A stretch of 64,000 nt of DNA. Origin: Candidatus Bathyarchaeia archaeon (GTDB lineage: Archaea > Thermoproteota > Bathyarchaeia > Bathyarchaeales > Bathycorpusculaceae). The stretch spans positions 192,001 through 256,000 of the forward strand of contig JBEKXL010000001.1 in NCBI GenBank assembly GCA_049512075.1. Reading direction: 5' to 3'. Below, in pieces: positions 37,377 through 62,667 of the stretch (position 1 is its first letter; each line of letters starts with the position of its first letter). A program made the translations under genes and the position numbers. Under the pieces are notes generated by a model that was not told the origin of the DNA, searched no databases, and worked only from the letters and a program-made list of their open reading frames with translations.

Positions 37377-37390
37377 GCGCGCGCATGTTC

Positions 37391-39355
37391 TCACATTTTT
37401 TCGGGGGCCAAGATGCCTATCAGGTTGAGGGCGTTCCGAAGCGCTATTCGAAGTGCATGTGTCAGGGCGAGTCTTGCGCTGCTTAGTCCTTGCGGTTCGG
37501 CTCTTATCACCGGAAAAGCGTTGTAGAACGTGTTGAACTTGTCTGCCAAGGAGTTTGCGAAGTCGGCGATGAGGTTTGGCTTGAGGTATTCCGCTGCTTC
37601 TATGAACGCGTCTGGGAAGCTGGCCAGTGTCAGGATTATTTCGTGTTCTAGCTTTTCGTTTAGCAGCTCGAAGGCTGGCTCTCCTGTCTTTTCAGCTGCT
37701 TTCTTCAGGATGCTGCATGCTCTGGCGTGGGTGTATTGAATGTAGGGTGCGCTGTTCTTCTCGAAGTTCAGCACTCGGTCCCAGGTGAAAACTACAGGTT
37801 TCGAAATGTCAACTTCGACGAGCGCGTAGCGGACGGCGCCCAAGCCGACAAAGTCAGCGATTTCCTGTTTCTCCTTTTCTGACAGTTGCGGTGAGCGCTT
37901 CGAAACTTCTTCGTAGGCTCGTCTTACAGCTTCGTCCATGACTTCGTCGAGGGTTATGTAACGTCCTCTTCGACTGGACATCTTGTAGCCTGGAAGAGTT
38001 ACCAGGTTGTAGGCGAAGTGAATCAGGTTGTCCGCTATCTTGCCGTAGCCCAGAGCGTGCAAGGCTATTTTCAATTGCAGTTGAGCAAGACTCTGCTCCA
38101 TGCCAATAACGTTGATGACTCTTTCAGCTCTTTCAAACTTCCACAAGGTGTAGGCCGCGTCTCTGGTGGTGTAAAGCGTTGTGCCGTCTGCACGACCCAG
38201 TGTTAAGGGTGGAACTTCGTGGCCTTCTCTTATGCCAAGCTTGGCCCAAAGCCCCTGTTGCGTGACGACCTTTTCAGCGTCGAACTCCAAAACGCCGCCT
38301 TCAGCGTAGGTGTAAGGTGACTGTTTGAGTTTCTGGAAAACCTCGTTCACGTGTCCGCTCCACACAAAGTCGCTCTCCCAGTCCCACGAGTCGAATGAAA
38401 CGTCGATTCTGCCCAGCGTCTCCCTGAACCCTTTCAGGCACATCTCGCTGACCTGTCGGATTAGCTGTTTGGCCTTCTCTTCCTTCAACTCATAAGCCTT
38501 GTTCAATATCTTTATCGATTCTTCAGGATTCTTGTCCTTAACTATTCTATCCAGCAGTTCCTCGAAGAGAGTCGGATACTTGTCTTTCACCTCCGCGGCG
38601 ATGGAAACCCAATCGTCCAGTTCCCTCGTGATTTTGGCGATTTCCTCTGCGGCCGAAACGGTTTTCGCGTTTTCAAGCTCCTTCTTCAGCCGGTTTATTT
38701 CAACGAGGCAACTCGTGATAGTGTAGATTCTGCCGATGAACTGGTCAGGCTTGCCTTCTGGTTTGGGCTTTCCCAGTTTTTCGTAGCCGTAGGCGATGAC
38801 TGAGGTCTGGCGGCCCACATCGTCAATGTAGAAGTGGCGGCTCACTGTGTGTCCTCTGTTTCTGAGCAGGCGAGAAAGGGTGTCGCCGAGCACGGGGTTT
38901 CTGGCTGTTCCGATGGTGAGAGGGTGAAGGGGGTTTGCGCTCGTGTGTTCAACGATGATTTTCAAAGGCTCGTCCGTCTTGACGAAACCGTATCCAGCGT
39001 CCAAGCTTCTGGCAGATTCAAGGGTCAAGGCTGAGAACTTGGCGAAGTCAACATGGAAATTAACGTAGCCTCCTCCTGCAGCGGCAACACTGCTTATCAG
39101 GGAAAACTCGGAAGGGTCTACGGCCTTGGCAAAGCGTTCAGCCAGCGCTAAAGGTTTCTCTCCCAGTTTCTTGGCGAGCTCAAAACACAATGATGAAGCT
39201 AGTTGTCCAAACTCGGGGTTCGGGGGTTTCTCTATCGCTAAGTTGCCGATCTGGATTTCTGGAAACAGCTTCTTGAAAGCATGGGCTAGGCTCTCCTCGC
39301 ACTCTTTTCGGAAAGCTGCGAAAGGGTTCTCTGCAACGGGTGACGCTTTTTTCAT
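37391..39355 (-). CDS. argS: Arginyl-tRNA synthetase
   Basis: VEHTSANP, DDVGRQ, DGTTLYTTRD, KMSSRRG, PYIQYTHAR, PEKM end. Confidence 0.95.
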   Translation of the reverse strand: MKKASPVAENPFAAFRKECEESLAHAFKKLFPEIQIGNLAIEKPPNPEFGQLASSLCFELAKKLGEKPLALAERFAKAVDPSEFSLISSVAAAGGGYVNFHVDFAKFSALTLESARSLDAGYGFVKTDEPLKIIVEHTSANPLHPLTIGTARNPVLGDTLSRLLRNRGHTVSRHFYIDDVGRQTSVIAYGYEKLGKPKPEGKPDQFIGRIYTITSCLVEINRLKKELENAKTVSAAEEIAKITRELDDWVSIAAEVKDKYPTLFEELLDRIVKDKNPEESIKILNKAYELKEEKAKQLIRQVSEMCLKGFRETLGRIDVSFDSWDWESDFVWSGHVNEVFQKLKQSPYTYAEGGVLEFDAEKVVTQQGLWAKLGIREGHEVPPLTLGRADGTTLYTTRDAAYTLWKFERAERVINVIGMEQSLAQLQLKIALHALGYGKIADNLIHFAYNLVTLPGYKMSSRRGRYITLDEVMDEAVRRAYEEVSKRSPQLSEKEKQEIADFVGLGAVRYALVEVDISKPVVFTWDRVLNFEKNSAPYIQYTHARACSILKKAAEKTGEPAFELLNEKLEHEIILTLASFPDAFIEAAEYLKPNLIADFANSLADKFNTFYNAFPVIRAEPQGLSSARLALTHALRIALRNALNLIGILAPEKM

Positions 39356-39443
39356 TTTGTTGAAGGTTCTCCAGCAGTCTAAGAGATGAGGTTATATTTT
39401 AATCTGGAAAATATCAACCTATCTGAAAAATGGGTGCGCGGCT

Positions 39444-40286
39444 ATGAGGACGAAAATCGTGTTTTCGGAGAAGTGTCTACGCTACGGGTCCTGGCACGTT
39501 GAAGGACCTGAAAGAGTCAGGAAAGCACATGAAATCCTGAGGAGCAAGGGCTACGAGTTCTTGAAGCCAGAACCAGCGTCAGAGGACGACTTGCTCAAGG
39601 TTCACGACCACGAGTACCTGTGGGCGGTCAAGAAGGGACTGGTCGAGGACGGCGACACCCCGGCCTATGACAACATTTTCGAGTACGCAAGACTCTCGGT
39701 CGGAGGAGCCATTCTGGCCGCAAATATCAAGGGGTTCTCGCTCATGCGTCCGCCTGGCCATCACGCGGGAAGGACTGGAATAGCGTTAGGCGCCGCCACT
39801 AGAGGGTTCTGCTATTTCAACAATATAGCCATAGCTGTGAAAAGCCTAGACAAACCCACTCTGATCTTGGACATCGACGGGCATCACGGAAACGGAACCC
39901 AAGAAATCTTCCAAGGCGACAAACAGGTAACATATGTCTCTTTGCATCGGCACCCGAACTATCCTGGCACAGGCACAGCCTCTGAAGGAAACTGCCATAA
40001 CTATCCTCTGCCACGAGATTGTGGAGACACCTTCTACGTAAAGACTCTCGACAAAGCGTTAGGCACCGTTGATATCGGCAGGTTTGAAGTCGTGGGTGTT
40101 TCGGCAGGGTTTGACACGCACGACGGAGACATAGCTTCACTTGGCCTGACGGCGAAAGGTTACAGGGCGATTGGAGAGAGGATTGGATCTTTAAAGAAGC
40201 CCACTTTCTTCGTCCTAGAAGGCGGCTACGAGGGTGAGAACGTGGGGAATGACATAGATCAACTTGTCAGGGGCTTTGAAGTCTAG
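39444..40286 (+). CDS. Histone deacetylase family amidohydrolase
   Basis: RPPGHHA, GFCYFNN, DIDGHHGNGT, SAGFD, LEGGY. Confidence 0.92.
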   Translation: MRTKIVFSEKCLRYGSWHVEGPERVRKAHEILRSKGYEFLKPEPASEDDLLKVHDHEYLWAVKKGLVEDGDTPAYDNIFEYARLSVGGAILAANIKGFSLMRPPGHHAGRTGIALGAATRGFCYFNNIAIAVKSLDKPTLILDIDGHHGNGTQEIFQGDKQVTYVSLHRHPNYPGTGTASEGNCHNYPLPRDCGDTFYVKTLDKALGTVDIGRFEVVGVSAGFDTHDGDIASLGLTAKGYRAIGERIGSLKKPTFFVLEGGYEGENVGNDIDQLVRGFEV

Positions 40287-40337
40287 CCGCTGTTCATCCG
40301 AAACGGATGCAACGAGTCGAAGAAGACTTAGATGACG

Positions 40338-42082: not shown

Positions 42083-42297
42083 ATAGTTTCTTAAGAAAAT
42101 TCCTCTTCTATCCGAATTTCAGCCCGCGCCAAATTGTCAAACACGCGTGGACGAAGCTCAATACACGTAGATACATCCTCTCAGTTTATTGAAGTTAACG
42201 AAAATCCAACCTTATTTTCGTAGTATTTGAGCAGAACCGACACCTATGAGAAGCTATATTAACAACTTGATGTCAAATAGGCTCGCAAGGTGAAAAA

Positions 42298-42702
42298 ATG
42301 GCAGAAAAACCAACAGCAGCATTCGCGTTGTCTCTAATCGGAGCTATCTTCATCCTTCTGGGCGGCTTAGCCATGCTAGCTATAGGGGCTATTGCTGGCA
42401 CTACTTTTAGCCTCGCTGGCTTGGGCGACTTCGGCTTTGGCTTCTTGGCTGTAGGTGTTATTGGACTCATATGGGGAATAATAACGCTGTATGGCGCTAT
42501 CATGATGAACAGCACAGACAAATCTAGAGTCAGAACAGGCGCTATCCTAGTGCTAGTATTCTCAATAATAAGCTGGTTCGGCACTTTCGGAGGTTTCTTC
42601 ATCGGCTTCCTTCTGGGCTTGATAGGTGCTATACTCGGACTGACATGGAATCCCTCAACGACTGAAAGTACCGGAAAGCCGGCACCACCCGTGCCGCCAT
42701 AA
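42298..42702 (+). CDS. Gly-rich membrane protein
   Basis: GGTGA RBS; several TM helices; Pro-rich tail. Confidence 0.7.
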   Translation: MAEKPTAAFALSLIGAIFILLGGLAMLAIGAIAGTTFSLAGLGDFGFGFLAVGVIGLIWGIITLYGAIMMNSTDKSRVRTGAILVLVFSIISWFGTFGGFFIGFLLGLIGAILGLTWNPSTTESTGKPAPPVPP

Positions 42703-42705
42703 CCC

Positions 42706-42720
42706 TTTTTTGTTTTTTTT
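42706..42720 (+). terminator. Oligo-T terminator
   Basis: TTTTTTGTTTTTTTT immediately after stop at 42702. Confidence 0.6.
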
Positions 42721-42817
42721 ACTACGAGAAAACATGCGCACATTATTCTGTTAGTTCTGATTCTATTAAGAAAAGATACGGCTTCGCGAAGGCGCCACAT
42801 TGAAGTGGGCAAAGCAC

Positions 42818-42979
42818 CTATCTGCTGGATTTATTCAAGTATTCATAAAGTTGGCGTGTGTAATTGTTCAGAGAGTCCAATCGTTTGATCACGTCAGCCA
42901 ACTGGACCTCTAATCGAACAACTCTTTCTCGAAGATCAGCTAAATCTCTTGCAGAGGTTTGTTCAGACAGGTTTTCCAC
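42818..42979 (-). CDS. Small coiled-coil protein (below ORF-track cutoff)
   Basis: Manual translation MENLSEQTSARDLADLRERVVRLEVQLADVIKRLDSLNNYTRQLYEYLNKSSR with heptad pattern. Confidence 0.55.
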   Translation of the reverse strand: MENLSEQTSARDLADLRERVVRLEVQLADVIKRLDSLNNYTRQLYEYLNKSSR

Positions 42980-43179
42980 AGCCTTCCGAGCTTTCTTAGA
43001 AGGCTATCCCCCCGAAGGACCTAAAAAGCTTTGTCATCAGTGTCTTAACCAACCTCGCCTGCCCATGCCGAATCCCACGTGTTCCCTCGCTACCTACCGT
43101 GCACGCATGAGCCTTTGCAGCATGCGTCTCTCATGAACAATTGAAAGTGCACGCAATCATTCCAGAGTCTGCGTGGTTT

Positions 43180-43309
43180 TGGCGGGCCCGCAGGGATTTG
43201 AGCCCAAACGGGGTCAAGTCCCACGACCCAGTTGCCAAAAAATGGCAAACGAGCGCGTCAAAACCCGCGCTCTTCAAAGCCGAGAGTTCGAATCTCTCCC
43301 GGGCTACCA
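43180..43309. other. tRNA-like folded unit (two inverted tRNA 3-prime fragments); probable island junction
   Basis: Minus-strand ..TCAAATCCCTGCGGGCCCGCCA and plus-strand GAGAGTTCGAATCTCTCCCGGGCTACCA; no D arm or anticodon arm. Confidence 0.7.
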
Positions 43310-43390
43310 TCAACCCAAGTCAGGTCGACGTTCAAACTCTCGGAATCAGTGCCCGCGCTCAATTCCTTCGTTACTTTTTTCTCTATCCCT

Positions 43391-43555
43391 TTATCTTAGC
43401 GGGTGATTTCCCCGAGTTAGATAGAGTAGAACAATGCCTCCTGCGGCTGATAAGGCGGCTGCATACGTAAAGGCAATCAGGGGTGACATAAGAGCCCAGA
43501 GTGCTCCGACTACTGCGCTAGAGGCAAAGTCGCCAATGCCGTTAACCGTCTGCAG
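43391..43555 (-). pseudogene. C-terminal fragment of an MFS transporter
   Basis: LQTVNGIGDFASSAVVGALW..AFTYAAALSAAG; no start codon. Confidence 0.6.
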
Positions 43556-44284
43556 GCGGAGCTTTGACTTGTCTCACCGGTGCAGTTTCATACGCCGCAT
43601 CTTTAGTGAACCCCAATATATCCAATGCAATTAGCCTCGGCTCGTCAACAATTCCAACAGCCGACATCCCGACTCTTATTGCGAACGGCGCTACCGTTGT
43701 GTGCTCTTTCACATCTTGAAGAACCTTTCTCTGTGAACCCAAAATAGCGCTCGCACGTGGCAGCGCTATTTTTTTCTATTTCTTTTAACCAACATATTTC
43801 CTAATGAATTCGTTTGGCCCTTGGTCGCTAAGGTCTTTTCTATGTTTACGGAAACAATTTAATTCAAAATTCGATGTTGGTCTCACGACAATCATCGATT
43901 AGTGTTACCGCGTAAGGTTCCTATTCGATTTTGAGTGAAATTTTAGTTTTCACACAAGCTCGAAAGAGTATGGAGACGTGTAGTTCCGAGTTCTGCAACC
44001 ACTCTCCTTCTGAAAATAATTTGGAAGGGAAATTCGCTTTTCTAAAAAAAGCGGTTAAACCCAAAGACTGTGTAAGAAAATTGAAATCTGTTTTTTATAT
44101 AGAAATGAAGGCGCGCCGCGCCCGCTTCCTATTTGAGACGTGAAGACTCGTTCTTATTTGAATTAAGGTTTTGAACCCTTTTGGGTTTAGGGACGAATGA
44201 GTTTAGACCTCTACCGGACTTGCGGGCTTGCGTCCGAGATAGACTTTCAGCATCATTTGCCAATTATTCAGACGAGTTGGAACC

Positions 44285-44333
44285 CAAGATAGCCCGATGG
44301 GAATTGAACTTCGCAGTGGGGACTTTGACCCCA
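44285..44333. repeat. tRNA T-arm-like repeat copy
   Basis: CAAGATAGCCCGATGGGAATTGAAC then GGGGACTTTGACCCCA. Confidence 0.65.
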
Positions 44334-44673
44334 TGATTAAGACTTTGTTTCCTCATTAGAGGGTTTGTCGCGGTCTTCTCCATGGCCAATATGGGTTTTA
44401 TGCGACCCGGGTGTTATTGCCGCGAAATACGATGGATCTTTGTGCCATGGAAACATGGGTGGTCTTTTTAGTTTCCCAGGTTCTTTTTCTGCTATGAGAG
44501 TATTTCTTCCCTGCTCAAGATCTGTTGAACGCTGAATGTAGTACGATGCAAATTAGCGCGCGCGCTTTTTCACCGTTTTTTTCCCTATTTTTGTTTCGAG
44601 TCGTTAATCTTAACAATACCTGTTTTGATCCGTCAGACGAGCAAATTATTTTACTATCTAGCAAGATAAAGGC

Positions 44674-45291
44674 TTGATTAAAAGAGGGAGCGATGAAATG
44701 GGAAAGGGATCATACCTTGACATGACTCCCGAAATGCGGGATTTTGCGAAAGAATTACTTTCTGATTCTGATTTTAAAGAAGCCGATAGATTATCCTGGG
44801 ATCTTGCTCAGGGCACTAAAAAAATGCGGCTGGACGCGAGAGTTCGTCTTATGGAAATCGTTAAACCGCCACCGAAAAGACCGCTGGAATATGCCCAGCA
44901 TGAAATTCAATATCTTCCCCAGTCGACGCGAAACAGTATTCGTTATCTTGGCGATTATATAGACCTTTTAGTTAAGGCTTATGCGTTTGAGGTTACGAAA
45001 AATCCTCGTTGCAAGGAGACTTCTTTAAACGGGAATCTTCAAAGATTGAGTTCCACTAAACATGGCGTTCCCTTGCAGTTAATTGATAATTTGAGAAGAT
45101 ACAACGCTTTGTTCTATAATCCAGCCAAACATGACTTTAGCACTCCCCCGCCTGATCGCGAGCACCATTTCACTTCGATAGAGACTATTTACTTGGTTTT
45201 TCTCTCGATGAAGCTTGCAGATGATATCAAGAAAATCTCGCCTTTGGCTAATCTGGTGAGTCTTGATAAAGAATCGATTCAGGAGTTTTAG
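44674..45291 (+). CDS. Hypothetical protein, HEPN-like
   Basis: All-helical pattern; YNPAKH at the position of the RxxxxH motif. Confidence 0.5.
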   Translation: MIKRGSDEMGKGSYLDMTPEMRDFAKELLSDSDFKEADRLSWDLAQGTKKMRLDARVRLMEIVKPPPKRPLEYAQHEIQYLPQSTRNSIRYLGDYIDLLVKAYAFEVTKNPRCKETSLNGNLQRLSSTKHGVPLQLIDNLRRYNALFYNPAKHDFSTPPPDREHHFTSIETIYLVFLSMKLADDIKKISPLANLVSLDKESIQEF

Positions 45292-45463
45292 GAACTGAAT
45301 TTGTATTGTTCCATTAGCAATCTATGACGCTTTTTCCGACATAGCCAAAACTCCACTCGACTGTTCATACTTTCAATTTGTGCTTGGTAGCAAATATGCC
45401 TGCCGCGGAATTGTACCTATCCGACGGGAATGGAACCCCGTGGAGTGAATCTGACCACTCTAA

Positions 45464-45513
45464 CACGACAAGAGATGGCCCGAGGGGATTTGAACCCAAA
45501 TGGGGTCAAGTCC
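45464..45513. repeat. tRNA T-arm-like repeat copy
   Basis: CACGACAAGAGATGGCCCGAGGGGATTTGAACCCAAATGGGGTCAAGTCC; first 27 nt match 49059-49085 at 26/27. Confidence 0.8.
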
Positions 45514-45664
45514 ATTCGTTTGCGCGCGCGCTTCTTGTCAAACGGCCTTGCTCGCCTTGTTAGCTCGCGCAGATTCACAGCCTATACAGTTGACTAGCGG
45601 GTAGGCGTCTGTTTCAGTTTGGTTGGCGTGCTTTGTCTTAGCGCGCGCGTTTCGGCACCGCATT

Positions 45665-46552
45665 CTAATGAAAATAGTTTTTGTCTGATATTTCGCCTTT
45701 TGTAACTTTCTCCACGAGACAATCAAGCAATTCGCCGTATGTGTGTATAAGTGAATTAAATTTAGTTTCAAGTTCTCGAAGTCTAATCCTCTTTTCTTTC
45801 TTTTCCATGACAAAAACAAGGCTCGAAGACTTATAATCGTAATAGAATTTTTCATGTGCCACACAATTCCTTATTTGATTTGCCTTGATTTCCCATTCTT
45901 CTGTATCCAGTACTCGTAGCGAAGGATAGTCACAAAGAAACCTTATCAACTCTTCATCGTTTTCTGGTCCTTTTCCAAGCTTCGCTTTGTAAATCTTGTT
46001 TAGCATTCCCTTTGTCCATTCATACCATGCCACATAGCCGTGTGCGACAATGAAGGCTTTCAACTTACGATTTCTTAGATTTCCAGCTAGACTTTGAATC
46101 TCTACATTGAATTGGATATTTCTCGTTCTGAACTGCATTCTCTCCTTTCGAGTATCATCGTAAAGTCTTTTTAACGTCTTAGGAGTCATGTCGAAAAGCT
46201 TCGTATATTCTTCTGTCCTTTTCCCTCGTGCTTCCCAAAACCACTTCATATAATTCTTGAGATATTCGCCCTTCACGTTTTGGATTGTCCTTGCCCATTC
46301 CTCTACATCATCCATTACCAGCTTGAACAGAAGCCTACCATACCAAAAGTCGTAAATATCCAGATTCTTGTTGAATGCCTCAGCACGGATTTCTCTAACT
46401 GAAAATACCTTTGTCCAATTTCCTCTGCAATTTATTTCCAGATTCTTTGAAGTTAGTATTAATTCGCCCCCGTCACAAATACACTTTTTAGCGCGTGAAT
46501 ACGCTACGCCTTTGAAAACGCCTTTTTTCACAACTTTTCCATTACGTTGCAT
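45665..46552 (-). CDS. Hypothetical protein with C-terminal HEPN-like domain
   Basis: RNCVAH motif; N-terminal PH-like beta region (GELILTSKNL). Confidence 0.55.
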   Translation of the reverse strand: MQRNGKVVKKGVFKGVAYSRAKKCICDGGELILTSKNLEINCRGNWTKVFSVREIRAEAFNKNLDIYDFWYGRLLFKLVMDDVEEWARTIQNVKGEYLKNYMKWFWEARGKRTEEYTKLFDMTPKTLKRLYDDTRKERMQFRTRNIQFNVEIQSLAGNLRNRKLKAFIVAHGYVAWYEWTKGMLNKIYKAKLGKGPENDEELIRFLCDYPSLRVLDTEEWEIKANQIRNCVAHEKFYYDYKSSSLVFVMEKKEKRIRLRELETKFNSLIHTYGELLDCLVEKVTKGEISDKNYFH

Positions 46553-46564
46553 GATAGGTGACTC

Positions 46565-47167
46565 TCATGGTTCGAAAGTTATCAATTTTCCACCGTTAAA
46601 GACATTTCCACAGCAGGGGCATACGAACAAGACTTGGCTCATATTGAAGAAAAAATGCAGAAATTGCCCAATCTGTTTTGAGGGTATCTTGATGCCTTCT
46701 CTGTGAATTTCCAGCATGCTAAGGAACCATTCAGACTGTTCTCCAAGGATTCTCCATGCTTCCTCAATTTTACCGTTCTTAATCAAAGATTCGTCAATTC
46801 CATTTATGGTTCTCACACTTTCGACTTTTTCGTTTAGTTCCGTCTTTGCCTTATCACAATAATCTGGAAGAAGAGCATTGACTTTCTCTTTATCATCTAT
46901 CCCTTCTTTTGGTTCGAATCTAATGTGCCAATAGCTTTTCTGGTCACCTTGAACTCGGCTCGGATGAAAGAGAAAACAATACCATTTCGTGCCCTTCTGA
47001 ATCAAACCCAAAACTATCGGACGCACCTTTAGACGCAAAGTATCATAGACACTATGCAAAAAATCTGAATAAGACATTTTTGGGTTCGTTGGTATTTCAA
47101 TATAGGTTTCCCAGATGCGGTTTAAGTGTGGCTTCTCCATTTTCCTCACAGCAGAACAATGCCACAA
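46565..47167 (-). CDS. Hypothetical protein
   Basis: 200-aa ORF; WYCFLFH..HIRFE; C-terminal CPCCG. Confidence 0.6.
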   Translation of the reverse strand: MWHCSAVRKMEKPHLNRIWETYIEIPTNPKMSYSDFLHSVYDTLRLKVRPIVLGLIQKGTKWYCFLFHPSRVQGDQKSYWHIRFEPKEGIDDKEKVNALLPDYCDKAKTELNEKVESVRTINGIDESLIKNGKIEEAWRILGEQSEWFLSMLEIHREGIKIPSKQIGQFLHFFFNMSQVLFVCPCCGNVFNGGKLITFEP

Positions 47168-47509
47168 ATTACGTTATAACTATAGCTGTCTAGACTTGAT
47201 TAACATCCACCTCACGGAATCACCACACGCATAGCACGCGCGCTGAGTGATGGGAATTGCGAAGAAGCAGTTGTGATTTGCCCGATACACGATCAGATCA
47301 TTCCAGTGACTGCGACCTACCGTACATGGTAGTTCTATTGCTCGCCCAGAGCAAGAGATAAGAGTGAAGAGGCTTGAAAACGAACGTGGAAATAGGAGTT
47401 CTTTCATATCTTAACACTTATGGCAACACCCGAGAAAGTGACCTGATAGACTGCAGATACAGACTTGGCGAATCTTCGGAGAAAGAAAACCCCGCCAAGG
47501 AGGTAAACC

Positions 47510-47923
47510 ATGAAAAAAGGAAGGATCCAAAAAAAACGAAACCGGTGGTATGAGCAGACAGAACGCGCGCAGTCGCAGAGCACAAAGTTGTGGACTACAG
47601 GTGGTGAGACTCGCGCGCCTCAGTCAGTCTATGAAAAAGTTCAGAAGGAACTGACTGGTAAGAGTCACGATGAACTTCTTGAGAGGTTTGAGAAGCGCTG
47701 GAATTTTCTTTGGGAGAACAGGGCAAAAGTGAAGAAGACATATCCTAAATTCTCACAGGCACAAAACATGACCGATGAGGAGCTTATTGAAGCTATTGCC
47801 CAGATAGAATCCGACCTTGCAATCAACACTGACAGAGAGATCGCTATAGCTTTTCTACAGGACCAGAAGCGTTTTGAAGGCAGACAAAAAGGAAGAGTGG
47901 ATAAATCTTTCCGTGAACACTAG
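47510..47923 (+). CDS. Hypothetical helical protein, possibly chimeric
   Basis: GGAGG RBS; two CGCGCGC tracts in 5-prime part. Confidence 0.4.
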   Translation: MKKGRIQKKRNRWYEQTERAQSQSTKLWTTGGETRAPQSVYEKVQKELTGKSHDELLERFEKRWNFLWENRAKVKKTYPKFSQAQNMTDEELIEAIAQIESDLAINTDREIAIAFLQDQKRFEGRQKGRVDKSFREH

Positions 47924-48160
47924 CAGGCAATCTCAAGCGCGCGCAACGTCGTTCCGGTTCAGCCTAGCCAAAATAGAACATGAACGCTCGGGCTTCTCCA
48001 TACACATCATTACATACATACCCAAGCACAGGTAAATAAGAAAATGTCAACCTCCAGAATTTAGCGAGACCCTAGCGCGCGCACTTACAAAGAGGAATTT
48101 AGGAACACGCTAGCGCGCTAGTTCGACAAACACAACATTAAGTTCGGGAAGCAACCAGAA

Positions 48161-48868
48161 CTAACCCCATTCTGCAAAAGACCTAGGCTCAAGATTCCAT
48201 ACGCAACTCTCTTTGACCCTCGCGTATCTCCAACATTGAGGCAGAAGTCTATGTTCTCTTTCAAATTGGTCAATGACCGTAATTCTAGCCTCAATTTTGA
48301 GTTCCTCGTTCAATGCCCACTTGTATTGATCCTGACTTATACTGAAACCTCCAAAAACTGTTGTGTGAGGATTCAAATTCCACTCTGTTTTTCCTGTATA
48401 GTATCCGCTTTCATCTTGGAGGTCCTTCACGTCATTGCCAATAATGACCTTGGTCTCGATTCTAATTCTTACGGGTAAAGAGTTACCCGCATGCTCTATC
48501 AACGTGGCAACAAACGGCAACGAGTCTCCAGGACGAGGATTCGCAGGTGTTGATGCGGTTGTTAAACGCAACAAAATAGGTGACACAAGGTTTCGTGTGT
48601 ATTCCTCGTACACTTGGTCTCTGCGCCTTCTTAATTCCTCAAACCTGTATTTGTTTCCCCTCTTACTCTTCGGATTGTAACGGTCAATTTTGGCGTGACA
48701 TTCATAACAAGCGGGCATTCCATTTTCTATGTTGTTGCCTCCATCGGGGTCAATGTGAGCTATCTCAATGTCTACTCCGCAAGCTTTCTTGCATAGACAA
48801 CAGTGACGGTCACTCCAAAGAAGCATTTTTATTTTGTCTTCGGGTCTAAATTCGGGTGGCCGAGGCAT
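48161..48868 (-). CDS. HNH endonuclease domain protein
   Basis: CCLC..EIAHID..GGNNIENGMPACYECH. Confidence 0.85.
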   Translation of the reverse strand: MPRPPEFRPEDKIKMLLWSDRHCCLCKKACGVDIEIAHIDPDGGNNIENGMPACYECHAKIDRYNPKSKRGNKYRFEELRRRRDQVYEEYTRNLVSPILLRLTTASTPANPRPGDSLPFVATLIEHAGNSLPVRIRIETKVIIGNDVKDLQDESGYYTGKTEWNLNPHTTVFGGFSISQDQYKWALNEELKIEARITVIDQFEREHRLLPQCWRYARVKESCVWNLEPRSFAEWG

Positions 48869-49058
48869 GTCTTTCCTCCGTGGTCTTAGCCTGTCGTATT
48901 ACTATTATCCGATTTGACTCAATGCGCATCGGCACTTAAAACGTTGTTTCTTTGATTTTTGAATAGAAATCAAGCAAGCTCTAACTACGGAAAACCAGCG
49001 CGCGCTGGCATCTGAAAAAAACCTCAGTAGCGATTCAATAATAAGTTTGACGAATTTT

Positions 49059-49087
49059 CACGGCAAGAGATGGCCCGAGGGGATTAG
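49059..49087. repeat. Truncated tRNA T-arm-like repeat copy
   Basis: CACGGCAAGAGATGGCCCGAGGGGATTAG, ending at (GC)n tract 49090-49098. Confidence 0.8.
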
Positions 49088-49098
49088 ACCGCGCGCGC

Positions 49099-49765: not shown

Positions 49766-49774
49766 GTATTCTAT

Positions 49775-50233: not shown

Positions 50234-51719
50234 TATTCGTCTCCTTGATTATTTTCTCGAATGATTCATCAGAGATTTCCTCAAATCCTCTTGGTGCTGA
50301 ACTTACGTCTTTGATAATGCCAAGCTTGATAAGTTTTTCTAAATTTATTCTTTTTGGGAAAGAATAAGTGTAGAGGAAATTCACAACGAAAGGACGGTTT
50401 TTTGGATAATAATCCCATTGTTCTTTAAGCTCTTTATCTGAGAAAACGCTTCTTTTCCTACACAAGTCAATGAATTGCCGATAATCGAAGATTGAGGTGT
50501 AAATTCCGTCGACGATTCCGAGTGTGGTAATGACGGACTTGTAGTAACCGTCAGTTCTGTAGAAAACAATGATGTCGCCGATTCTCAGATCTCGCCTAAT
50601 TGACCTTGAGACATAGACTTTCGATATAGCATTTCTGAAAGGTTCGTTTTCAACAAAATCCATAGGTGACTCAGTTCTGAGGATTGAATCAGGAAAGAGG
50701 TTGGTATGATACTGAGGATATATTGGAACGATGAACTTGCGTGCTTTTCTTGACATGAATGGGTACGTTGTTTTAGGAGAACTCAGTGATGCGTTTGGAG
50801 AAAAGTCATGAGTGAAGACCACCTCTTTTCCAGAGGCTGATTGCTTTATTCCGTGATATATGAAACCGTATTCTATCAACAGATTGATCAAGCGAGAATG
50901 TTCAACGCGTTTGGTAAACAAGGTAACATAGATTTCATCGACTGAGAGATGCAATGCATTGTCAAAGACGATTTTCAGGAATCTTTCTCCGATTTTCAAT
51001 CCATTGAGTTGAACCTTGAACGTTCCGATTTTGAGTCGTTTCTTCTTAGAGAACGGCGGTTCTATATCTGAGTAAGGTTCAGATTCATCTTCTGTTTTAA
51101 GATAAAGAAAAGCGATGATTTTATCATCTGATGAACACACGTAAGCGATCTCCTCTGCTTTACGGTTGAACCATTTGTCAAAATCAACGTAGTCTTCTCT
51201 GAAAGAGTCAAAAAACTCGTCTTTCAGGTTGATATTGCCGAAAAACTCTTTCTTTACAGAAGGCACTTTGTAATCCACGAGCTCAGGATTCTCTGCAGTA
51301 ACCTTTTCCAGAAACGAGTCAATGGAAAATACTTTTGTCTCAATTCCCAAGTCATGCGCTTTTCTATGGATTTTCGCGTCCTCGGTTATCAACAAATCTA
51401 CGCGGTCAGAAGCGACTTCATTTATTAGAGTTGTATCATTTCTGTCACTTTCTGAAGAATCGTATTTCTTTGCAACAGTTCGAACTTCATCTTTCAGTTG
51501 TGCTTGGGTTTTCAGTTGATTGTAACTCTGTATTTTCGTGAGAAATGCCTTTCTCGTCTCGGCATTCTGATGAAGAGATATTTCGTCAATTGTAACCTGA
51601 TGAACATATTTCTTGTATCCTAGTTTGTCAATCCACCAAAATAGTTTGCCGATTTCCTCTCTCGTTGGATCTTTTGCCTCGCGGTGCACTATGATATTAG
51701 TGTCCAGCAACACTCGCAA
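50208..51719 (-). CDS. PIN + GNAT acetyltransferase + ASCH/PUA-like fusion
   Basis: LLDTNI, LITED (PIN); FFDSFREDY, KIGTFKV..GLKIGERF (GNAT); IVPIYPQYHTNLFPD, GDIIVFY. Confidence 0.85.
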   Translation of the reverse strand: MRVLLDTNIIVHREAKDPTREEIGKLFWWIDKLGYKKYVHQVTIDEISLHQNAETRKAFLTKIQSYNQLKTQAQLKDEVRTVAKKYDSSESDRNDTTLINEVASDRVDLLITEDAKIHRKAHDLGIETKVFSIDSFLEKVTAENPELVDYKVPSVKKEFFGNINLKDEFFDSFREDYVDFDKWFNRKAEEIAYVCSSDDKIIAFLYLKTEDESEPYSDIEPPFSKKKRLKIGTFKVQLNGLKIGERFLKIVFDNALHLSVDEIYVTLFTKRVEHSRLINLLIEYGFIYHGIKQSASGKEVVFTHDFSPNASLSSPKTTYPFMSRKARKFIVPIYPQYHTNLFPDSILRTESPMDFVENEPFRNAISKVYVSRSIRRDLRIGDIIVFYRTDGYYKSVITTLGIVDGIYTSIFDYRQFIDLCRKRSVFSDKELKEQWDYYPKNRPFVVNFLYTYSFPKRINLEKLIKLGIIKDVSSAPRGFEEISDESFEKIIKETNSDERIIVG

Positions 51720-51873
51720 CTTTCTTCCCTTTTCAGATTGTCTTGATCTCTTGAAAAGATTTGCCCCTAAAGAAGTGGAAAGCCTTCACCAACCACAAAT
51801 AACTTAACAGCGTATCGATACAAGGCAAAATTAAAAAGGGACAAAATCCACCACAAATAACGCAGCAGTATCG

Positions 51874-52845
51874 CTAAGGGCTAAGTTTTTTATAGTATTC
51901 GGGCGTTGATAACACTCGGAGTGGAATCTTTGGAACGTGCTCTCTGGCAAGCTTTGTCCCAAGAAAATTCACGACTTCCTCGATTTCCATCTTGCCTCTG
52001 TAACCCAAAGTTTGAAGAAAACCGAAGTTTCTCTCGATTGATCGATTTTCCCCATCCATCAGGGCTTGCAGAATCGCATTAACGTAGAAAGTCTCAGGGT
52101 CTGAAGCGATCTCCTTAACCATGCCATCGAAATACACGGACTTGGTGCCGATGTGTTCTGTGAGAAAAGTATAGGAAGAGTCGCGTTTTGAGAAGTGGGC
52201 TTTGGGAAAGTAGTGCTCTGCAATCGTTTCGTACAACCATCCCCTAGTTGCTTTCGCTATGACTGACGACCCAGCATGCACAGCACGAGCAGTATAACCA
52301 TAGGGTATGCCAGAATATATTGCGTCTATCGCATGTTTTTCGAGAGTTTTGATATCGTCAGGGTCATTGATCAAAATGCCTTTTTCGTTCTCGTCATATA
52401 CTTCTGATTTTGAAAGGTCGAATGAACCAGAAAGCGCCAAGTCGTTGGTCAGAATGAGCGTTGAATGAAGGTCGCGGGCGAAGAAAACTCTGCAACCAAC
52501 CTCATCCAGAAAGTCGATAAGATGAAAGGCTATTTGCGAGTATTCTCGACCTCTGTATTTTTCATCTTTTAGAGGGTCATTTGTTACGATGTTGATTTCT
52601 GCCCCAAAAACAAGTTTTACAAGCAGCATTGCATATGCAAGATTTATTGAAAATATCCCACAGTCTAACCCAAACCACGATTCATCCAAACCAAGAACAT
52701 CAGCATCGATCGTCAGTTGTACATCACTAATCCACGGGCTCAAAACATAGATTTTTGGAAATTCGCACAGTCTTTGCCGATACCCAGAAAAAATCTGGAA
52801 CATTTCAGCTCGAATCCTGTCGTTCGGAATAGTCTTGGTCGTCAT
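51874..52845 (-). CDS. PLD-like domain protein with degenerate HKD motif
   Basis: LSPWISD; LHSTLILTNDLALSGSFDLS; NEKG. Confidence 0.65.
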   Translation of the reverse strand: MTTKTIPNDRIRAEMFQIFSGYRQRLCEFPKIYVLSPWISDVQLTIDADVLGLDESWFGLDCGIFSINLAYAMLLVKLVFGAEINIVTNDPLKDEKYRGREYSQIAFHLIDFLDEVGCRVFFARDLHSTLILTNDLALSGSFDLSKSEVYDENEKGILINDPDDIKTLEKHAIDAIYSGIPYGYTARAVHAGSSVIAKATRGWLYETIAEHYFPKAHFSKRDSSYTFLTEHIGTKSVYFDGMVKEIASDPETFYVNAILQALMDGENRSIERNFGFLQTLGYRGKMEIEEVVNFLGTKLAREHVPKIPLRVLSTPEYYKKLSP

Positions 52846-53627: not shown

Positions 53628-53670
53628 TAGGGAGAGCAAATAGAAGCTACAACAAATCCAGGCGCTGGTC

Positions 53671-55960: not shown

Positions 55961-55966
55961 ATAAGT

Positions 55967-56158: not shown

Positions 56159-56182
56159 AAGATTCTTCTTAGCTAACGATGT

Positions 56183-61228: not shown

Positions 61229-61525
61229 GTGTTAAATACTTTTCACATTCATGGAGCCACTGACGCGAATTTGTTACACGATAATCCCGCCGAATGTGCC
61301 TATGCCTGTTGACTGGTGTGTTTATTGTCAACAGCTATCAGAAGAGTGTCGCTTTGTCTGATCCCTATGTAGTCAACGATTTCTTTAGGAATTGTCATTC
61401 TGACAGAGTTACCCCCTCCTCAGTTTCTGTCCAAAGTGCAGAAGGGCAAGAGGTAGACATGAAACTGTTACCTGGACACTGGTGGGTCTCAAAGATTATA
61501 ATAATCCTTAGAGAGACATTATGCT

Positions 61526-62485
61526 ATGAGCTCACATTTGGTTGAGCTACTCATAACCAAAGGTTATGGGTTAGCCGACGAAGACTTTGACGAAATAATA
61601 AGAATGGATAGACTAAAGGACATCAGCCAGAATTTTGCTGAGTCTATTCATAAGATACAAGAGAGTTTTCATTGTAAGGCTAGGATTAGAGTCGTTGAGT
61701 TTGATGAGCTATCCGGAGTTGATTTTGGTTCCAATTCTTCGTACAACACAGCTATTTTCGTAGGGAGGCATATTTTCTATAATTCCATAAGCTCAAACAA
61801 GAATTGCTGCGTCGTTTTTTTCTATGCGGGTGTTGTTGAGAAACTAAAGGCTCTGTTTAAGGATCGTATATTACCTCATGAGTTCGCGCATCATTATCAA
61901 TTCGCCTATGGAGACTTTCCCTGCATGTTAGGAAAGGGAGTTCCAGAGAACCTTTTTCCACAGTTTGCAAAATCAAACCCTATAGGTCCAGAATCAGGCC
62001 AGGTATACATTGACAATTTGTTGGTAAAAGACTGCAGGCTCTCTTTGTTCAAAGACCTTACAGAAAGAATCAGTGACACTATTTGTGAAGGAATGCTACG
62101 TGAGAGGGGGTTTTGCCAAGGCATTCTCGAGCAATATCGCACTGATAGGAACATCGATCCTGGAAGGGGTCTTCCTCCAAGTCAACAGCCTGCAATTCGT
62201 TATTTTAGAAGACTGAGTCTTTGGGATGTCGCTGAATGGCATGCAATATTACGGCTTGTGTATCCAAATGACCAGGCTGTCAAAAGCATGTCATCTCAAG
62301 ATAGGAGATTTGCGATACGTTTAAACAAGGAATTTGATAGGGCCAAAAATGCCTTCAAAGCGGTCTATGATCTATGTCTGAAAACCGACTACAATACATT
62401 CAAAGAAGTAAAGAATTGCATTGATTATATGAAAGAAATCATGCGGTTTCTGAACATAGAATTACGAACAGATCAGATTTGGTAA
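61526..62485 (+). CDS. Hypothetical protein with HExxH (zincin-like) motif
   Basis: LPHEFAHHYQ and a later E in LTERISD. Confidence 0.55.
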   Translation: MSSHLVELLITKGYGLADEDFDEIIRMDRLKDISQNFAESIHKIQESFHCKARIRVVEFDELSGVDFGSNSSYNTAIFVGRHIFYNSISSNKNCCVVFFYAGVVEKLKALFKDRILPHEFAHHYQFAYGDFPCMLGKGVPENLFPQFAKSNPIGPESGQVYIDNLLVKDCRLSLFKDLTERISDTICEGMLRERGFCQGILEQYRTDRNIDPGRGLPPSQQPAIRYFRRLSLWDVAEWHAILRLVYPNDQAVKSMSSQDRRFAIRLNKEFDRAKNAFKAVYDLCLKTDYNTFKEVKNCIDYMKEIMRFLNIELRTDQIW

Positions 62486-62667
62486 AGTAGAGCCGCACTA
62501 TCCGTTTTTCTCTTCGTTGAGCCATTCGGGAACTATGACTGCGCGAATCAATTCCTGAACGGTAGAACAAGCAACTGCAAATAATGGTTAACAGTCTTGT
62601 CCGCGCGCGCTGCTTCGTTTTTTAGTTTCTTCTAATATCTGGACGGATAGTCCTTCCAAACTTGACT

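What the first reader, a model, noticed from the sequence alone, without database searches (positions are those of the whole stretch)
37377..62610. (GC)4-5 tracts are over-represented and mark deletion junctions
Seen: alternating GC runs of 8-10 nt at 19433, 37377, 44556, 45522, 45641, 47937, 48075, 48998, 49090, 49514 and 62602 (eight within 44.5-49.6 kb), plus 7-mers at 47237, 47564 and 47612. A rough independent-base estimate (G and C about 0.23 each) gives about one per window. Several are at breakpoints: the SDR gene stops at 37377; 49090 fuses a truncated T-arm repeat to mid-transposase; 49514 is where the RHH gene shifts frame; 44556 separates an RBS from a start-less 72-codon frame. 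Inference: a signature of a repair or recombination pathway (GC filler at end-joining, deletion between CG/Z-DNA tracts, or a HIP1-like iterated palindrome).
Basis: partly seen in the sequence, partly recalled or inferred. Interest (0 to 1): 0.75.

Follow-up and report, generated by a model that had tools for sequence, protein, structure and literature searches.

The report
GC-repeat scars marking DNA rearrangement joints
Short runs of alternating G and C are the commonest eight-letter word in this archaeal genome, they sit exactly where DNA has been deleted, inserted or swapped, and they most likely are scars left by a jumping gene whose two ends carry the same GC letters.

Summary
All 11 tracts and 3 heptamers are at the stated coordinates. 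Genome-wide (2.73 Mb Bathyarchaeia MAG) there are 581 alternating-GC runs of 8 nt or more; GCGCGCGC is the most frequent 8-mer (646 vs 28-45 expected). The consensus is A(GC)4-5T, with a sharp ceiling (105 runs of 10, 3 of 11). 75% lie outside ORFs. Against the closest relative (1.0 Mb compared), 83 of 340 homology breakpoints carry a tract within 5 nt, 80 of them in one genome only; intergenic tracts are 6-fold enriched at breakpoints (p=2e-10). 12 of 15 short fillers that replace 100 nt or more are GC-alternating. One is polarised as a deletion by an outgroup. Independent runs bridge the tracts. Best explanation (about 50%): fused tips of an IS5-family insertion sequence whose inverted repeats begin A-GCGCGC-T, in subfamilies down to 33% identity. 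Its transposase occurs in 12 of 22 motif-rich and 3 of 30 motif-poor genomes. Ku/LigD is present but uncorrelated with the motif. The likely agent, a transposon, is new.

The parts
19433..19440 (.). (GC)4 tract, 16 nt past the stop of ORF 19457-20536(-)
   Evidence: G002 has GCGCGCAC at the same place. Sequence to the right is conserved; to the left it is unrelated (53 nt in G000 against 651 nt in G002).
37071..37373 (+). 3'-truncated NAD-epimerase/SDR-like gene fragment (about 101 codons, one frameshift)
   Evidence: 79% identical over 349 nt to the 5' part of a 254-aa ORF in G002:C5. Homology stops 3 nt before the tract.
37377..37384 (.). (GC)4 tract between the truncated gene fragment and the ArgRS stop (37391)
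   Evidence: Homology to all four congeners ends 5-6 nt after the ArgRS stop. The spacer is 74-77 nt in G001 and G004, 497 in G002 and 1312 in G003. A decayed tract GCGTGCGC lies near the fragment's other side (read by eye).
42117..52000 (.). Accessory island without a counterpart in the four congeners; holds 8 of the 11 tracts. The right limit is approximate.
   Evidence: Synteny with G002:C16 ends at about 42116, at that contig's end. ORFs are singletons, mostly without Pfam hits. A tRNA 3'-half-like repeat sits at 43281-43310.
44556..44565 (.). (GC)5 tract
   Evidence: Bridged by contigs of X5 and X6.
45522..45531 (.). (GC)5 tract, paired with 45641 (109 nt apart)
   Evidence: Bridged in X5 and X6.
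45641..45649 (.). 9-nt tract, 15 nt past the stop of ORF 45665-46552(-)
47237..47243 (.). 7-nt run CGCGCGC
47564..47570 (.). 7-nt run CGCGCGC inside ORF 47510-47923
47612..47618 (.). 7-nt run CGCGCGC inside ORF 47510-47923
47937..47944 (.). (GC)4 tract, 13 nt past the stop of ORF 47510-47923(+)
   Evidence: Bridged in X5 and X6.
48075..48082 (.). (GC)4 tract
   Evidence: Bridged in X5 and X6.
48089..48118 (.). Probable solo inverted-repeat end of an IS5-family subfamily, ending in GCGCGC (48113-48118)
   Evidence: Multi-copy in all four congeners. Depth is 370-430 against 94. It resembles, by eye, the TIR AAACTAATTTAGGAACAAGCATGCGCGC of the G002:C7 element.
48998..49005 (.). (GC)4 tract in the 14-nt palindrome CCAGCGCGCGCTGG
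   Evidence: Bridged in X5.
49090..49098 (.). 9-nt tract at the 5' truncation point of a transposase fragment
   Evidence: blastx: the fragment starts 0 nt from the tract, with 278 aa of a 378-aa paralogue missing.
49132..49461 (+). C-terminal remnant of an rve/DDE (IS240-like) transposase
   Evidence: Pfam rve_3 positions 13-67 of 67; DDE_Tnp_IS240 positions 90-134 of 139.
49514..49522 (.). 9-nt tract formed inside a gene copy by a 4-to-5 nt replacement (frameshift)
   Evidence: The paralogue on C20 reads GCTTG-TCG where the window reads GCGCGCGCG, within a continuous 572-nt alignment at 83% identity.
62602..62610 (.). 9-nt tract between convergent ORFs, in G000-specific DNA
63241..64000 (-). 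Partial IS5-family insertion sequence. Tip A-GCGCGC-T at 63241-63248; transposase remnant at 63263-63829.
   Evidence: Pfam DDE_Tnp_1. The end is conserved in 6 further G000 copies and in G001-G004.

Best explanation
The A(GC)4-5T tracts are scars made from the two ends of an IS5-family insertion sequence. The element is about 1.1 kb and encodes one DUF772 + DDE_Tnp_1 transposase. Its terminal inverted repeats begin with A-GCGCGC-T at both tips. Because (GC)n is self-complementary, the left and right tips can pair with each other. When the element leaves or is deleted, the two 6-nt GC tips remain on the flanks. They are rejoined with a 2-4 nt overlap, or after fill-in, giving A(GC)4T or A(GC)5T and almost never more than 12 nt. 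Insertions survive mainly in intergenic and accessory DNA. IS-mediated adjacent deletions, inversions and imprecise excisions then leave the scar exactly at deletion, replacement and truncation joints. Old scars decay by transitions. Some are re-used as breakpoints. SHOWN: the tracts' abundance, shape and place at joints; the element's GC tips; and its association with motif-rich genomes. INFERRED: that tracts derive from the tips, and the chemistry of joining.
For: (1) IS tips. The G000 C32 copy has 29-nt inverted repeats AGCGCGCTGCCTTGTCCC... / ...GGGACAAGCCAGCGCGCT, 1053 nt apart. 5 of 7 aligned G000 copy ends read AGCGCGCTGCC; a sixth (C39) keeps the GCGCGC tip but has C before it. Inverted repeats flanking the transposase were found in 7 of 8 relatives' loci examined. 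6 of those start with GCGCGC, although the inner repeat differs and the proteins are only 33-73% identical. The seventh (G133) has CGCGCC/GGCGCG, which is inverted but not direct, so the tips belong to the repeat and are not a target duplication. (2) Shape. Tracts are flanked by A (69%) and T (67%), with weaker T and A one step out, as the tips are (A|GCGCGC...GCGCGC|T; TA in G131 and G035). Run lengths 8/9/10/11/12/13 number 284/186/105/3/2/1. The ceiling fits 6+6 with overlap. The drop from (GC)5 to (GC)6 is seen in all 22 rich genomes, for example 79 to 2 in G000. (3) Distribution. The transposase was found in 12 of 22 motif-rich and 3 of 30 motif-poor genomes; near-full-length open copies in 11 of 22 against 0 of 30 (panel chosen). 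(4) Joints. 83 of 340 G000/G002 breakpoints carry a tract within 5 nt. 20 of 133 intergenic tracts lie at breakpoints, against 483 of 19247 control windows. Of 25 events with a 1-60 nt allele opposite 100 nt or more, 8 have a perfect run of 8 or more and 3 a run of 6-7; 12 of the 15 fillers of 15 nt or less are GC-alternating or 1-2 transitions off (partly judged by eye). E1 is a 776-nt deletion inside a DEAD_2 helicase gene, with G004 keeping the long form. Truncated paralogue fragments end at tracts in 25 of 417 cases against 17 of 1860 controls. 78 of 974 repeat-copy ends carry a tract within 5 nt, against 2-26 after shifting. Truncated copies of a 285-nt repeat carry tracts at their truncation points. 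An IS fragment on C3 (21690-21814) ends at a tract. (5) Small non-autonomous elements with GC tips exist.
Against: No site was found that is IS-filled in one genome and carries a scar in another; the one boundary inspected (C39 against G002:C1) diverges on the far side too. 10 of 22 motif-rich genomes, including all 4 of family f35, gave no hit with this transposase. IS copies are often missing from MAGs, but G108 is a single contig. G000 has about 4 long copies against 581 tracts. If the tips paired in full register, A(GC)3T should dominate, yet AGCGCGCT (91, tips included) is rarer than AGCGCGCGCT (115). From recall, the studied IS4-type DDE transposases cut via hairpins and leave no transposon bases on the donor; the chemistry of IS5-family excision is not known to me. 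Joints with large deletions need two steps (adjacent deletion, then loss of the IS). An outgroup polarised only 1 of 8 events tried. An IS that merely prefers tracts as targets would produce the same correlation.
Confidence: 0.5

Rival explanations
1. The tracts are primary recombination or fragile sites, comparable to HIP1 or to Z-DNA or topoisomerase hot spots. They arise by some other route. Breaks or exchanges start at them, so they end up at joints. The IS family simply homes to them, or has evolved tips that mimic them.
For: Some joints carry a tract or remnant in both genomes with unrelated DNA beyond it: 19433; C14:8005 and C4:14722. Two events look like loss or gain of a segment between two tracts (E9, E10). 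Six full-length copies of a 285-nt module are bounded by GCGCGCGC on both sides. Tracts cluster: 15% of spacings are under 200 nt against 4% expected.
Against: Of 83 tract-bearing breakpoints, only 3 have the tract in both genomes. The long alleles of E1-E5 have no tract at either end, and E1 is polarised as ancestral. At 49514 the tract replaces unrelated bases. The G133 tips are inverted, not direct. This reading leaves the origin, the A/T flanks and the length ceiling unexplained.
Confidence: 0.22
2. The tracts are filler made by the host's end-joining machinery, independent of any transposon. Broken ends receive self-complementary alternating G/C tails, either added by a polymerase or copied from other tracts by microhomology-primed template switching. 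The tails anneal and are ligated.
For: A complete LigD-PrimPol, Ku and ligase+phosphoesterase operon lies at G000:C16:5124-8191. Short GC fillers replace segments of 124-2551 nt. Small replacements also occur. Closely spaced tracts separate short heterogeneous fragments: 103 pairs at 260 nt or less.
Against: Ku was found in 4 motif-poor genomes (G010, G020, G026, G052) and not in G003, G021, G028 or G035, which hold 45-69 copies. There is no PolX and no RT. Prim-Pol occurs in 2 of 22 rich and 3 of 30 poor genomes. A constant sequence with fixed A/T flanks and phase (250 GCGCGCGC runs against 34 CGCGCGCG) is not what untemplated addition gives.
Confidence: 0.15
3. This is a HIP1-type motif built up by methylation-directed very-short-patch or mismatch repair (Elhai's model), and its place at joints is incidental.
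For: It is an octameric GC-rich palindrome, the top 8-mer, at about 1 per 4.7 kb. One-step transition variants are 2.3-2.8-fold over-represented. N4/N6 methyltransferases are present (7 matches in G000).
Against: No C5 methyltransferase was found. N4/N6 enzymes occur in 49 of 52 genomes regardless of motif. There is a 14-fold intergenic bias. Tracts appear as multi-base insertions or replacements, not point changes. Placement at breakpoints is precise to 5 nt, with no excess at 6-20 nt.
Confidence: 0.04
4. The tracts are an assembly or sequencing artefact.
For: The genomes are MAGs, and GC-rich repeats are hard to sequence.
Against: Contigs built separately from four runs in four studies carry the tracts with 0 differences; two of the runs are not flagged as the source. 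Tracts are shared at orthologous sites in separate assemblies. The motif is lineage-specific, absent or rare in most sister genera.
Confidence: 0.01

Closest known systems
Excision footprints of cut-and-paste DNA transposons (Tc1/mariner, P element, hAT); from recall
   Same: A short palindromic sequence built from the few terminal bases of both inverted repeats is left at the donor site. It is often accompanied by flanking deletions, and it accumulates where insertions are tolerated.
   Different: Footprints are hardly described in prokaryotes. Here the scar would be uniform because the tips are self-complementary. It would be the most frequent octamer of the genome. The element is IS5-family, and the cleavage chemistry is untested.
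HIP1 (GCGATCGC) and alternate HIPs of cyanobacteria
   Same: A GC-rich octameric palindrome, over-represented tens of fold and lineage-specific (Elhai 2015, PMC4390886: abstract and passages seen; Xu et al. 2018, PMC5861425: passages seen). From recall, HIP1 was first noticed at the borders of a deletion in a Synechococcus smt locus.
   Different: HIP1 is abundant inside genes, is linked to cognate methyltransferases and is quasi-periodic. These tracts are 14-fold intergenic, no C5 methylase was found, and they match the tips of an IS. GCGCGC does not occur in the text of Elhai 2015.
IS5-family insertion sequences
   Same: DUF772 + DDE_Tnp_1 transposase, about 1.1 kb, 22-34-nt terminal inverted repeats.
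   Different: The tips are alternating GCGCGC, conserved across subfamilies while the inner repeat diverges. The target duplication is unresolved. I know of no described IS5 group with such tips (recall only; ISfinder is not available here).
Mobile GC clusters of yeast mitochondrial DNA
   Same: Short GC-rich palindromic elements scattered in AT-richer intergenic DNA, mobile and associated with recombination and deletion (Wu and Hao 2015, PMC4478555: search listing and start of the abstract only).
   Different: GC clusters are 30-50 nt structured elements with their own flanks. Here there are only 8-10 nt, and an autonomous IS is the candidate source.
Filler or N-nucleotides at non-homologous end-joining junctions (Ku/LigD, TdT); from recall
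   Same: Extra GC-rich bases at joints between unrelated sequences. A Ku/LigD operon is present.
   Different: The filler has a fixed sequence, phase and flanks. Ku is not correlated with the motif. There is no PolX.

Membership tests
Highly iterated palindrome (HIP1-type) | Octameric palindrome far above Markov expectation, the top word of the genome | tested here: met
   646 observed against 27.8 (iid), 29.9 (order 1) and 44.6 (order 3). It is the most frequent 8-mer.
Highly iterated palindrome (HIP1-type) | Abundant within coding regions as well as between genes | tested here: not met
   0.064 per kb in ORFs against 0.89 per kb outside. 437 of 581 tracts lie wholly or partly outside ORFs of 80 aa or more. 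Even so, ORF counts are 6-10-fold above expectation.
Highly iterated palindrome (HIP1-type) | A cognate DNA methyltransferase for the motif or its core | tested here: inconclusive
   PF00145 gave 0 matches. PF01555 gave 7 matches in G000, but it is present in 49 of 52 genomes, rich or poor. Specificities are unknown.
IS5-family insertion sequence (the element, not the tract) | DDE_Tnp_1 transposase with an N-terminal DUF772 domain | tested here: met
   PF01609 at 5.9e-17 and PF05598 at 6.6e-06 on the 289-aa ORF of the C32 copy.
IS5-family insertion sequence (the element, not the tract) | Terminal inverted repeats bounding an element of about 1-1.5 kb | tested here: met
   29-nt arms, 90% complementary, 1053 nt apart (C32); 26-nt arms (C39). 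Found in 7 of 8 relatives' loci.
IS5-family insertion sequence (the element, not the tract) | Short direct target-site duplication | tested here: inconclusive
   The flanks of the C32 and C39 copies show no clear duplication. TA flanks both tips in G131 and G035.
Transposon excision footprint | The sequence is composed of the terminal bases of both element ends | tested here: met
   The tips are A-GCGCGC and GCGCGC-T. The tracts are A(GC)4-5T, with 6 of 581 runs longer than 10 nt.
Transposon excision footprint | The same site is found occupied by the element in one genome and carrying the footprint in another | tested here: inconclusive
   None was found in the 1.0 Mb compared. The only IS boundary inspected is not a clean empty site. 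No systematic search was possible after the script cap.
Transposon excision footprint | Occurs only in lineages that have or had the element | tested here: inconclusive
   12 of 22 rich against 3 of 30 poor genomes have the transposase. All 4 f35 genomes lack it with this query.
Ku/LigD end-joining filler | Presence of Ku, LigD polymerase, ligase and phosphoesterase | tested here: met
   G000:C16:5124-8191.
Ku/LigD end-joining filler | The signature tracks the pathway across genomes | tested here: not met
   Ku occurs in 7 of 61 relatives: 3 of 11 genomes with 10 or more motif copies and 4 of 50 with fewer (counted by hand).
REP/RAYT-type repeats | A structured imperfect palindrome of 20-40 nt with a Y1 (IS200-like) transposase | not tested
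   Only 1-2 flanking positions are conserved. PF01797 was not searched.

The most novel reading that the evidence does not exclude
Bathyarchaeia possess a dedicated way of sealing broken DNA with a self-complementary GC linker. Any two ends receive the same A(GC)n tail, from an unidentified sequence-specific nucleotidyl transferase or from a fixed template, and anneal through it. Deletions, captured fragments and acquired genes would all be stitched in with the same 8-10 nt joint. The IS5-family element would then have evolved GCGCGC tips to exploit this pathway for resealing its donor site, and would not be the source of the tracts.
Probability: 0.12. Interest if true: 0.85.

Novelty: new variant of a known kind. 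Interest (0 to 1): 0.62.

Why it matters
If the tracts are IS scars, three things follow. First, they are a readable record of past transposition and of the deletions, replacements and gene captures that went with it. That record would cover about a quarter of all structural differences between two close archaeal genomes. Second, they would show that a prokaryotic insertion sequence can leave uniform excision footprints in such numbers that the footprint becomes the genome's commonest octamer. Third, that would offer a concrete, testable origin for highly iterated palindromes, whose origin in cyanobacteria has stayed open for 30 years. Practically, the motif marks accessory-DNA boundaries and pseudogene ends in Bathyarchaeia MAGs. 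It can also be used to date and count rearrangements.

Tried and rejected
Candidate enzymes:
- C5 methyltransferase in G000: none.
- PolX palm domain: none in G000, and weak scattered hits elsewhere.
- Reverse transcriptase: none in G000.
- Prim-Pol: one in G000, but 2 of 22 rich against 3 of 30 poor genomes.
- N4/N6 methylases: ubiquitous.
- Ku: uncorrelated with the motif.

Outgroup polarisation:
- Uninformative for E3, E4, the G2C4:30132 event, E5, and E7/E12.
- E2 and E6: G004 has a segment of similar length, but with no detectable similarity for E6 and only a 30-nt hit for E2. These are at most suggestive.

Other analyses:
- First version of the truncated-fragment test: controls scored the same (4.7% against 4.3%) because flanks cut at control points create false ends. 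It was replaced by the contiguous-query test. Part of that signal comes from a spurious ORF inside the 285-nt repeat family (6 of the 40 hits listed).
- Donor search for long fillers (15-59 nt): no second copy in G000. The coordinates used for the 59-nt one were wrong-stranded, so that one is untested.
- A 170-nt element first read as the source MITE has only about 6 copies.
- Tract-to-tract duplicated modules: only one family (20 of 950 HSPs), so general cassette mobility is not supported.
- Rfam on 42-52 kb: no match at E of 0.01 or below.
- Inter-tract segments of 103 close pairs are heterogeneous.
- Blunt-joined odd variants (GCGCCGCGC and the like) are not enriched.
- Homopolymer G/C runs: 16 only, tied to another repeat.

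Literature and tools:
- Searches with 'GCGCGCGC' or 'highly iterated palindrome', Bathyarchaeota/palindrome/over-represented/octamer and archaea/end joining/filler/deletion junction/LigD found no description of this motif.

Full report
THE OBSERVATION

Five runs are 8 nt, four are 9 nt and two are 10 nt, and there are three 7-mers. Eight of the eleven lie in 44.5-49.6 kb, and all eleven lie outside ORFs of 80 aa or more.

The window is G000:C1:192001-256000 of a 2.73-Mb, 86-contig genome. The record titles of its closest relatives place it in the Bathyarchaeia.

IT IS A PROPERTY OF THE WHOLE GENOME

Alternating-GC runs of length 6/7/8/9/10/11/12/13 number 669/195/284/186/105/3/2/1. No other dinucleotide repeat shows such a hump. 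GCGCGCGC is the single most frequent 8-mer, at 646 copies against 27.8 expected for independent bases. Order-1 and order-3 Markov models expect 29.9 and 44.6.

Outside ORFs the count is 486, against 5.2, 20.7 and 96.1 expected (orders 1-3). Inside ORFs it is 152, against 24.4, 19.0 and 14.6. The phase is fixed: 250 GCGCGCGC runs against 34 CGCGCGCG, and 90 (GC)5 against 15 (CG)5. The flanks are A (69%) before and T (67%) after, with weaker T and A one step further out. The consensus is therefore tA(GC)4-5Ta.

There are 581 runs of 8 nt or more (0.213 per kb), which predicts 13.6 per 64 kb. The window's 11 is ordinary. The cluster of 8 in 5.1 kb is matched only on C35 and C11. 437 of the 581 lie wholly or partly outside ORFs: 0.89 per kb against 0.064 per kb. 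All four kinds of intergenic spacer are used.

One-step transition variants are 2.3-2.8-fold over-represented and transversions 0.9-2.5-fold (most at or below 2.1), as expected if tracts decay by mutation.

THE TRACTS ARE REAL DNA

Contigs assembled separately from four public runs of four studies carry the 44.0-49.5 kb stretch without a difference. Two runs not flagged as possible sources (X5, X6) bridge 44556, 45522, 47937, 48075, 48998 and 49090. Of 22 tracts lying inside G000/G002 alignments, 14 are identical in both assemblies.

DISTRIBUTION ACROSS LINEAGES

AGCGCGCGCT occurs 115 times in G000 and 29-98 times in its four congeners. It occurs 0-1 times in most other genera of the family, with exceptions (63, 53 and 45 copies). 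The backwards control gives 0-8.

Among 301 genomes of the class, high counts recur in families f26 (up to 119), f35 (up to 131) and f36 (83). The same A...T flanks and the steep fall from (GC)5 to (GC)6 hold in all 22 rich genomes examined, for example 79 to 2 in G000 and 158 to 26 in G108.

THE TRACTS MARK JOINTS

I compared 1,007,126 nt of the nearest relative G002 (93-97% identical where alignable) with all of G000.

Of 340 homology breakpoints, 83 have a tract within 5 nt. In 35 the tract is in G002 only, in 45 in G000 only, and in 3 in both. Among intergenic G002 tracts, 20 of 133 sit at a breakpoint, against 483 of 19,247 random intergenic windows (15.0% against 2.5%, binomial p = 1.8e-10). 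18% lie inside alignments, against 49.5% of controls. There is no excess at 6-20 nt, so the association is exact to a few bases. The first 612 kb alone gave the same picture.

Of 99 collinear junction events:
- 24 are clean indels, several with AT-rich target duplications of ordinary integrated elements.
- 45 are replacements, 20 with a tract of 8 nt or more at a boundary.
- 25 pit a 1-60-nt allele against 100 nt or more.

Of those 25, 8 short alleles contain a perfect run of 8 nt or more and 3 a run of 6-7. Of the 15 fillers of 15 nt or less, 12 are GC-alternating or one or two transitions off (partly judged by eye). Examples are ACCGCGCGCGT for 776 nt, ATAGCGCGCG for 229 nt, AACGCGCGCGCGA for 902 nt and GCGCGCG for 835 nt.

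The 776-nt case lies inside a DEAD_2 helicase gene. The outgroup G004 aligns continuously across the long form, so G000 suffered a deletion and gained the tract. Seven further attempts at polarisation were uninformative or only suggestive.

Within G000, truncated paralogue fragments end within 12 nt of 25 of 417 intergenic tracts, against 17 of 1,860 control sites (odds ratio 6.9, p = 2e-9). Part of this signal comes from one repeat family. 78 of 974 ends of repeated-sequence copies carry a tract within 5 nt, against 2-26 after shifting. Copies of a 285-nt repeat that are truncated at different internal points carry a tract at the truncation point.

THE WINDOW'S OWN CASES

- 37377 lies between a 3'-truncated epimerase-like fragment and the ArgRS stop. 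The fragment is 79% identical to a G002:C5 gene and its homology ends 3 nt before the tract. On the other side, homology to all congeners ends 5-6 nt after the ArgRS stop. The spacer there is 74-77 nt in two congeners and holds three different inserts in the other three genomes.
- 49090 abuts a transposase remnant that lacks 278 N-terminal residues.
- At 49514 a paralogue reads GCTTG-TCG where the window reads GCGCGCGCG. This is a 4-to-5-nt replacement that shifts the frame.
- At 19433 G002 has GCGCGCAC in the same place. The right side is conserved and the left side unrelated, so a tract can also be re-used as a breakpoint.
- The 42.1-52 kb stretch has no counterpart in the congeners and consists of singleton ORFs.

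WHAT MAKES THEM

Host enzymes do not explain the pattern.
- G000 has a full LigD-PrimPol/Ku/ligase-phosphoesterase operon. Yet Ku is found in four motif-poor genomes and not in four rich ones.
- There is no PolX, no reverse transcriptase and no C5 methylase.
- Prim-Pol and N4/N6 methylases do not track the motif.

The lead came from the window's right end. A 59-nt sequence starting at 63242 recurs in all congeners. It is the end of an insertion sequence. The complete G000 copy on C32 is about 1.1 kb and encodes a DUF772 + DDE_Tnp_1 (IS5-family) transposase. Its 29-nt inverted repeats read AGCGCGCTGCCTTGTCCC... and ...GGGACAAGCCAGCGCGCT. Five of seven aligned G000 copy ends read AGCGCGCTGCC; a sixth (C39) keeps the GCGCGC tip with C before it, and the seventh is decayed.

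Relatives of the transposase at 33-73% identity in G002, G021, G028, G035, G131 and G136 all have inverted repeats that begin with GCGCGC, while the inner repeat differs. In G131 and G035 the tips are flanked by TA. In G133 the tips are CGCGCC and GGCGCG. These are inverted but not direct, so the tips belong to the repeat and are not a duplicated target. In one of the eight loci no repeat was found.

On a panel chosen by motif count, the transposase was found in 12 of 22 rich and 3 of 30 poor genomes. Near-full-length open copies occur in 11 of 22 against 0 of 30. By hand the odds ratio is about 11. No test was run, and related genomes are not independent.

THE MODEL

Two tips, A-GCGCGC and GCGCGC-T, are self-complementary. 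Joined with a 4- or 2-nt overlap, or after fill-in of short overhangs, they give A(GC)4T and A(GC)5T and cannot exceed 12 nt. This reproduces the sequence, the phase, the A/T flanks and the ceiling.

The biology of insertion sequences supplies the rest. Such elements survive in intergenic and accessory DNA, and they cause adjacent deletions and imprecise loss. That accounts for where the tracts sit and for their presence at joints.

I put this at about 0.5. Shown: the motif's statistics, its place at joints, the GC tips, and the association with rich genomes. Inferred: that tracts descend from tips, and how the ends are joined.

EVIDENCE AGAINST THE MODEL

- I found no site that is IS-filled in one genome and scarred in another.
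- 10 of 22 rich genomes, including all four of f35, gave no hit.
- There are few IS copies against 581 tracts.
- A(GC)3T is not the commonest product.
- From recall, the studied IS4-type enzymes leave no transposon bases on the donor.

The main rival (0.22) is that the tracts come first, as hot spots, and the IS homes to them. A transposon-independent GC-linker end-joining pathway remains possible (0.12-0.15).

WHAT IS KNOWN

The nearest relatives in kind are transposon excision footprints, cyanobacterial HIP1 and yeast mitochondrial GC clusters. Three full-text searches found no description of this motif or of GC-tipped IS5 elements in archaea. Elhai's HIP survey does not contain GCGCGC. A survey of prokaryotic genomes reports Z-DNA-type patterns as generally suppressed (PMC4060949, abstract seen). 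I class the finding as a new variant of a known kind.

Noticed in passing
window 8381-8480 (+): ARAGORN calls a 100-nt tRNA-like gene of undetermined identity with a four-base anticodon (ataa). It may be an intron-containing or permuted archaeal tRNA, or a false call.
   Followed up: no
window 56183-61228 (-): A complete type I restriction-modification operon: HsdS (400 aa), HsdM (494 aa) and HsdR (792 aa). A CHAT-domain ORF lies upstream at 55283-55960.
   Followed up: no
window 43281-43310: A 30-nt tRNA 3'-half-like sequence (T-arm, acceptor, CCA) recurs at 100% identity at many loci of all four congeners. It is probably the attachment-site repeat of integrated elements, at the left edge of the accessory island.
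   Followed up: partly
G000:C26:22424-22708 and 38 further copies (e.g. C13:8732-9018, C8:6408-6694): A repeat family with a 130-150-nt core holding two copies of TTGTAATGTCAGATGTAATG, often next to a run of 8-10 G or C. Six 285-nt versions are bounded by GCGCGCGC on both sides. Its nature (MITE, small RNA gene?) is unknown.
   Followed up: partly
G000:C16:43773-43950, C4:42375-42547, C7:19602-19772, C9:28921-29088: A repeat of about 170 nt with imperfect inverted ends (GCGCGC-TAGRGCRTTGCTAAATCGA ... CGAATTTAGCAACACGCTA-GCGCG) that resemble the inverted repeat of the G002:C7 IS subfamily. It is probably a non-autonomous derivative, with about 6 copies.
   Followed up: partly
G000:C16:5124-8191: A complete bacterial-type end-joining operon in an archaeon: LigD primase-polymerase, Ku, and ATP-ligase fused to the 3'-phosphoesterase. 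DUF72 follows and a HerA-like ATPase is nearby. Ku is found in only 7 of 61 relatives.
   Followed up: partly
G000:C35 (17.8 kb contig): The densest tract region of the genome: 29 tracts in 17.8 kb, many in pairs 80-200 nt apart between small ORFs. It may be a decayed mobile element or plasmid fragment.
   Followed up: no
G000:C30:13482-19122, C18:31915-34891, C12:45909-51931, C13:41021-61149: Four insertions of 3-20 kb relative to G002 with 9-12-nt AT-rich target duplications and no GC tracts at their ends. These are ordinary integrated elements, which shows that not all indels in this lineage carry the GC joint.
   Followed up: no
G000:C4:113369-113794: A Prim-Pol domain in an 871-aa open frame, typical of plasmid or integrated-element replicases. 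Similar proteins of 806-917 aa occur in G006, G026 and G121.
   Followed up: no
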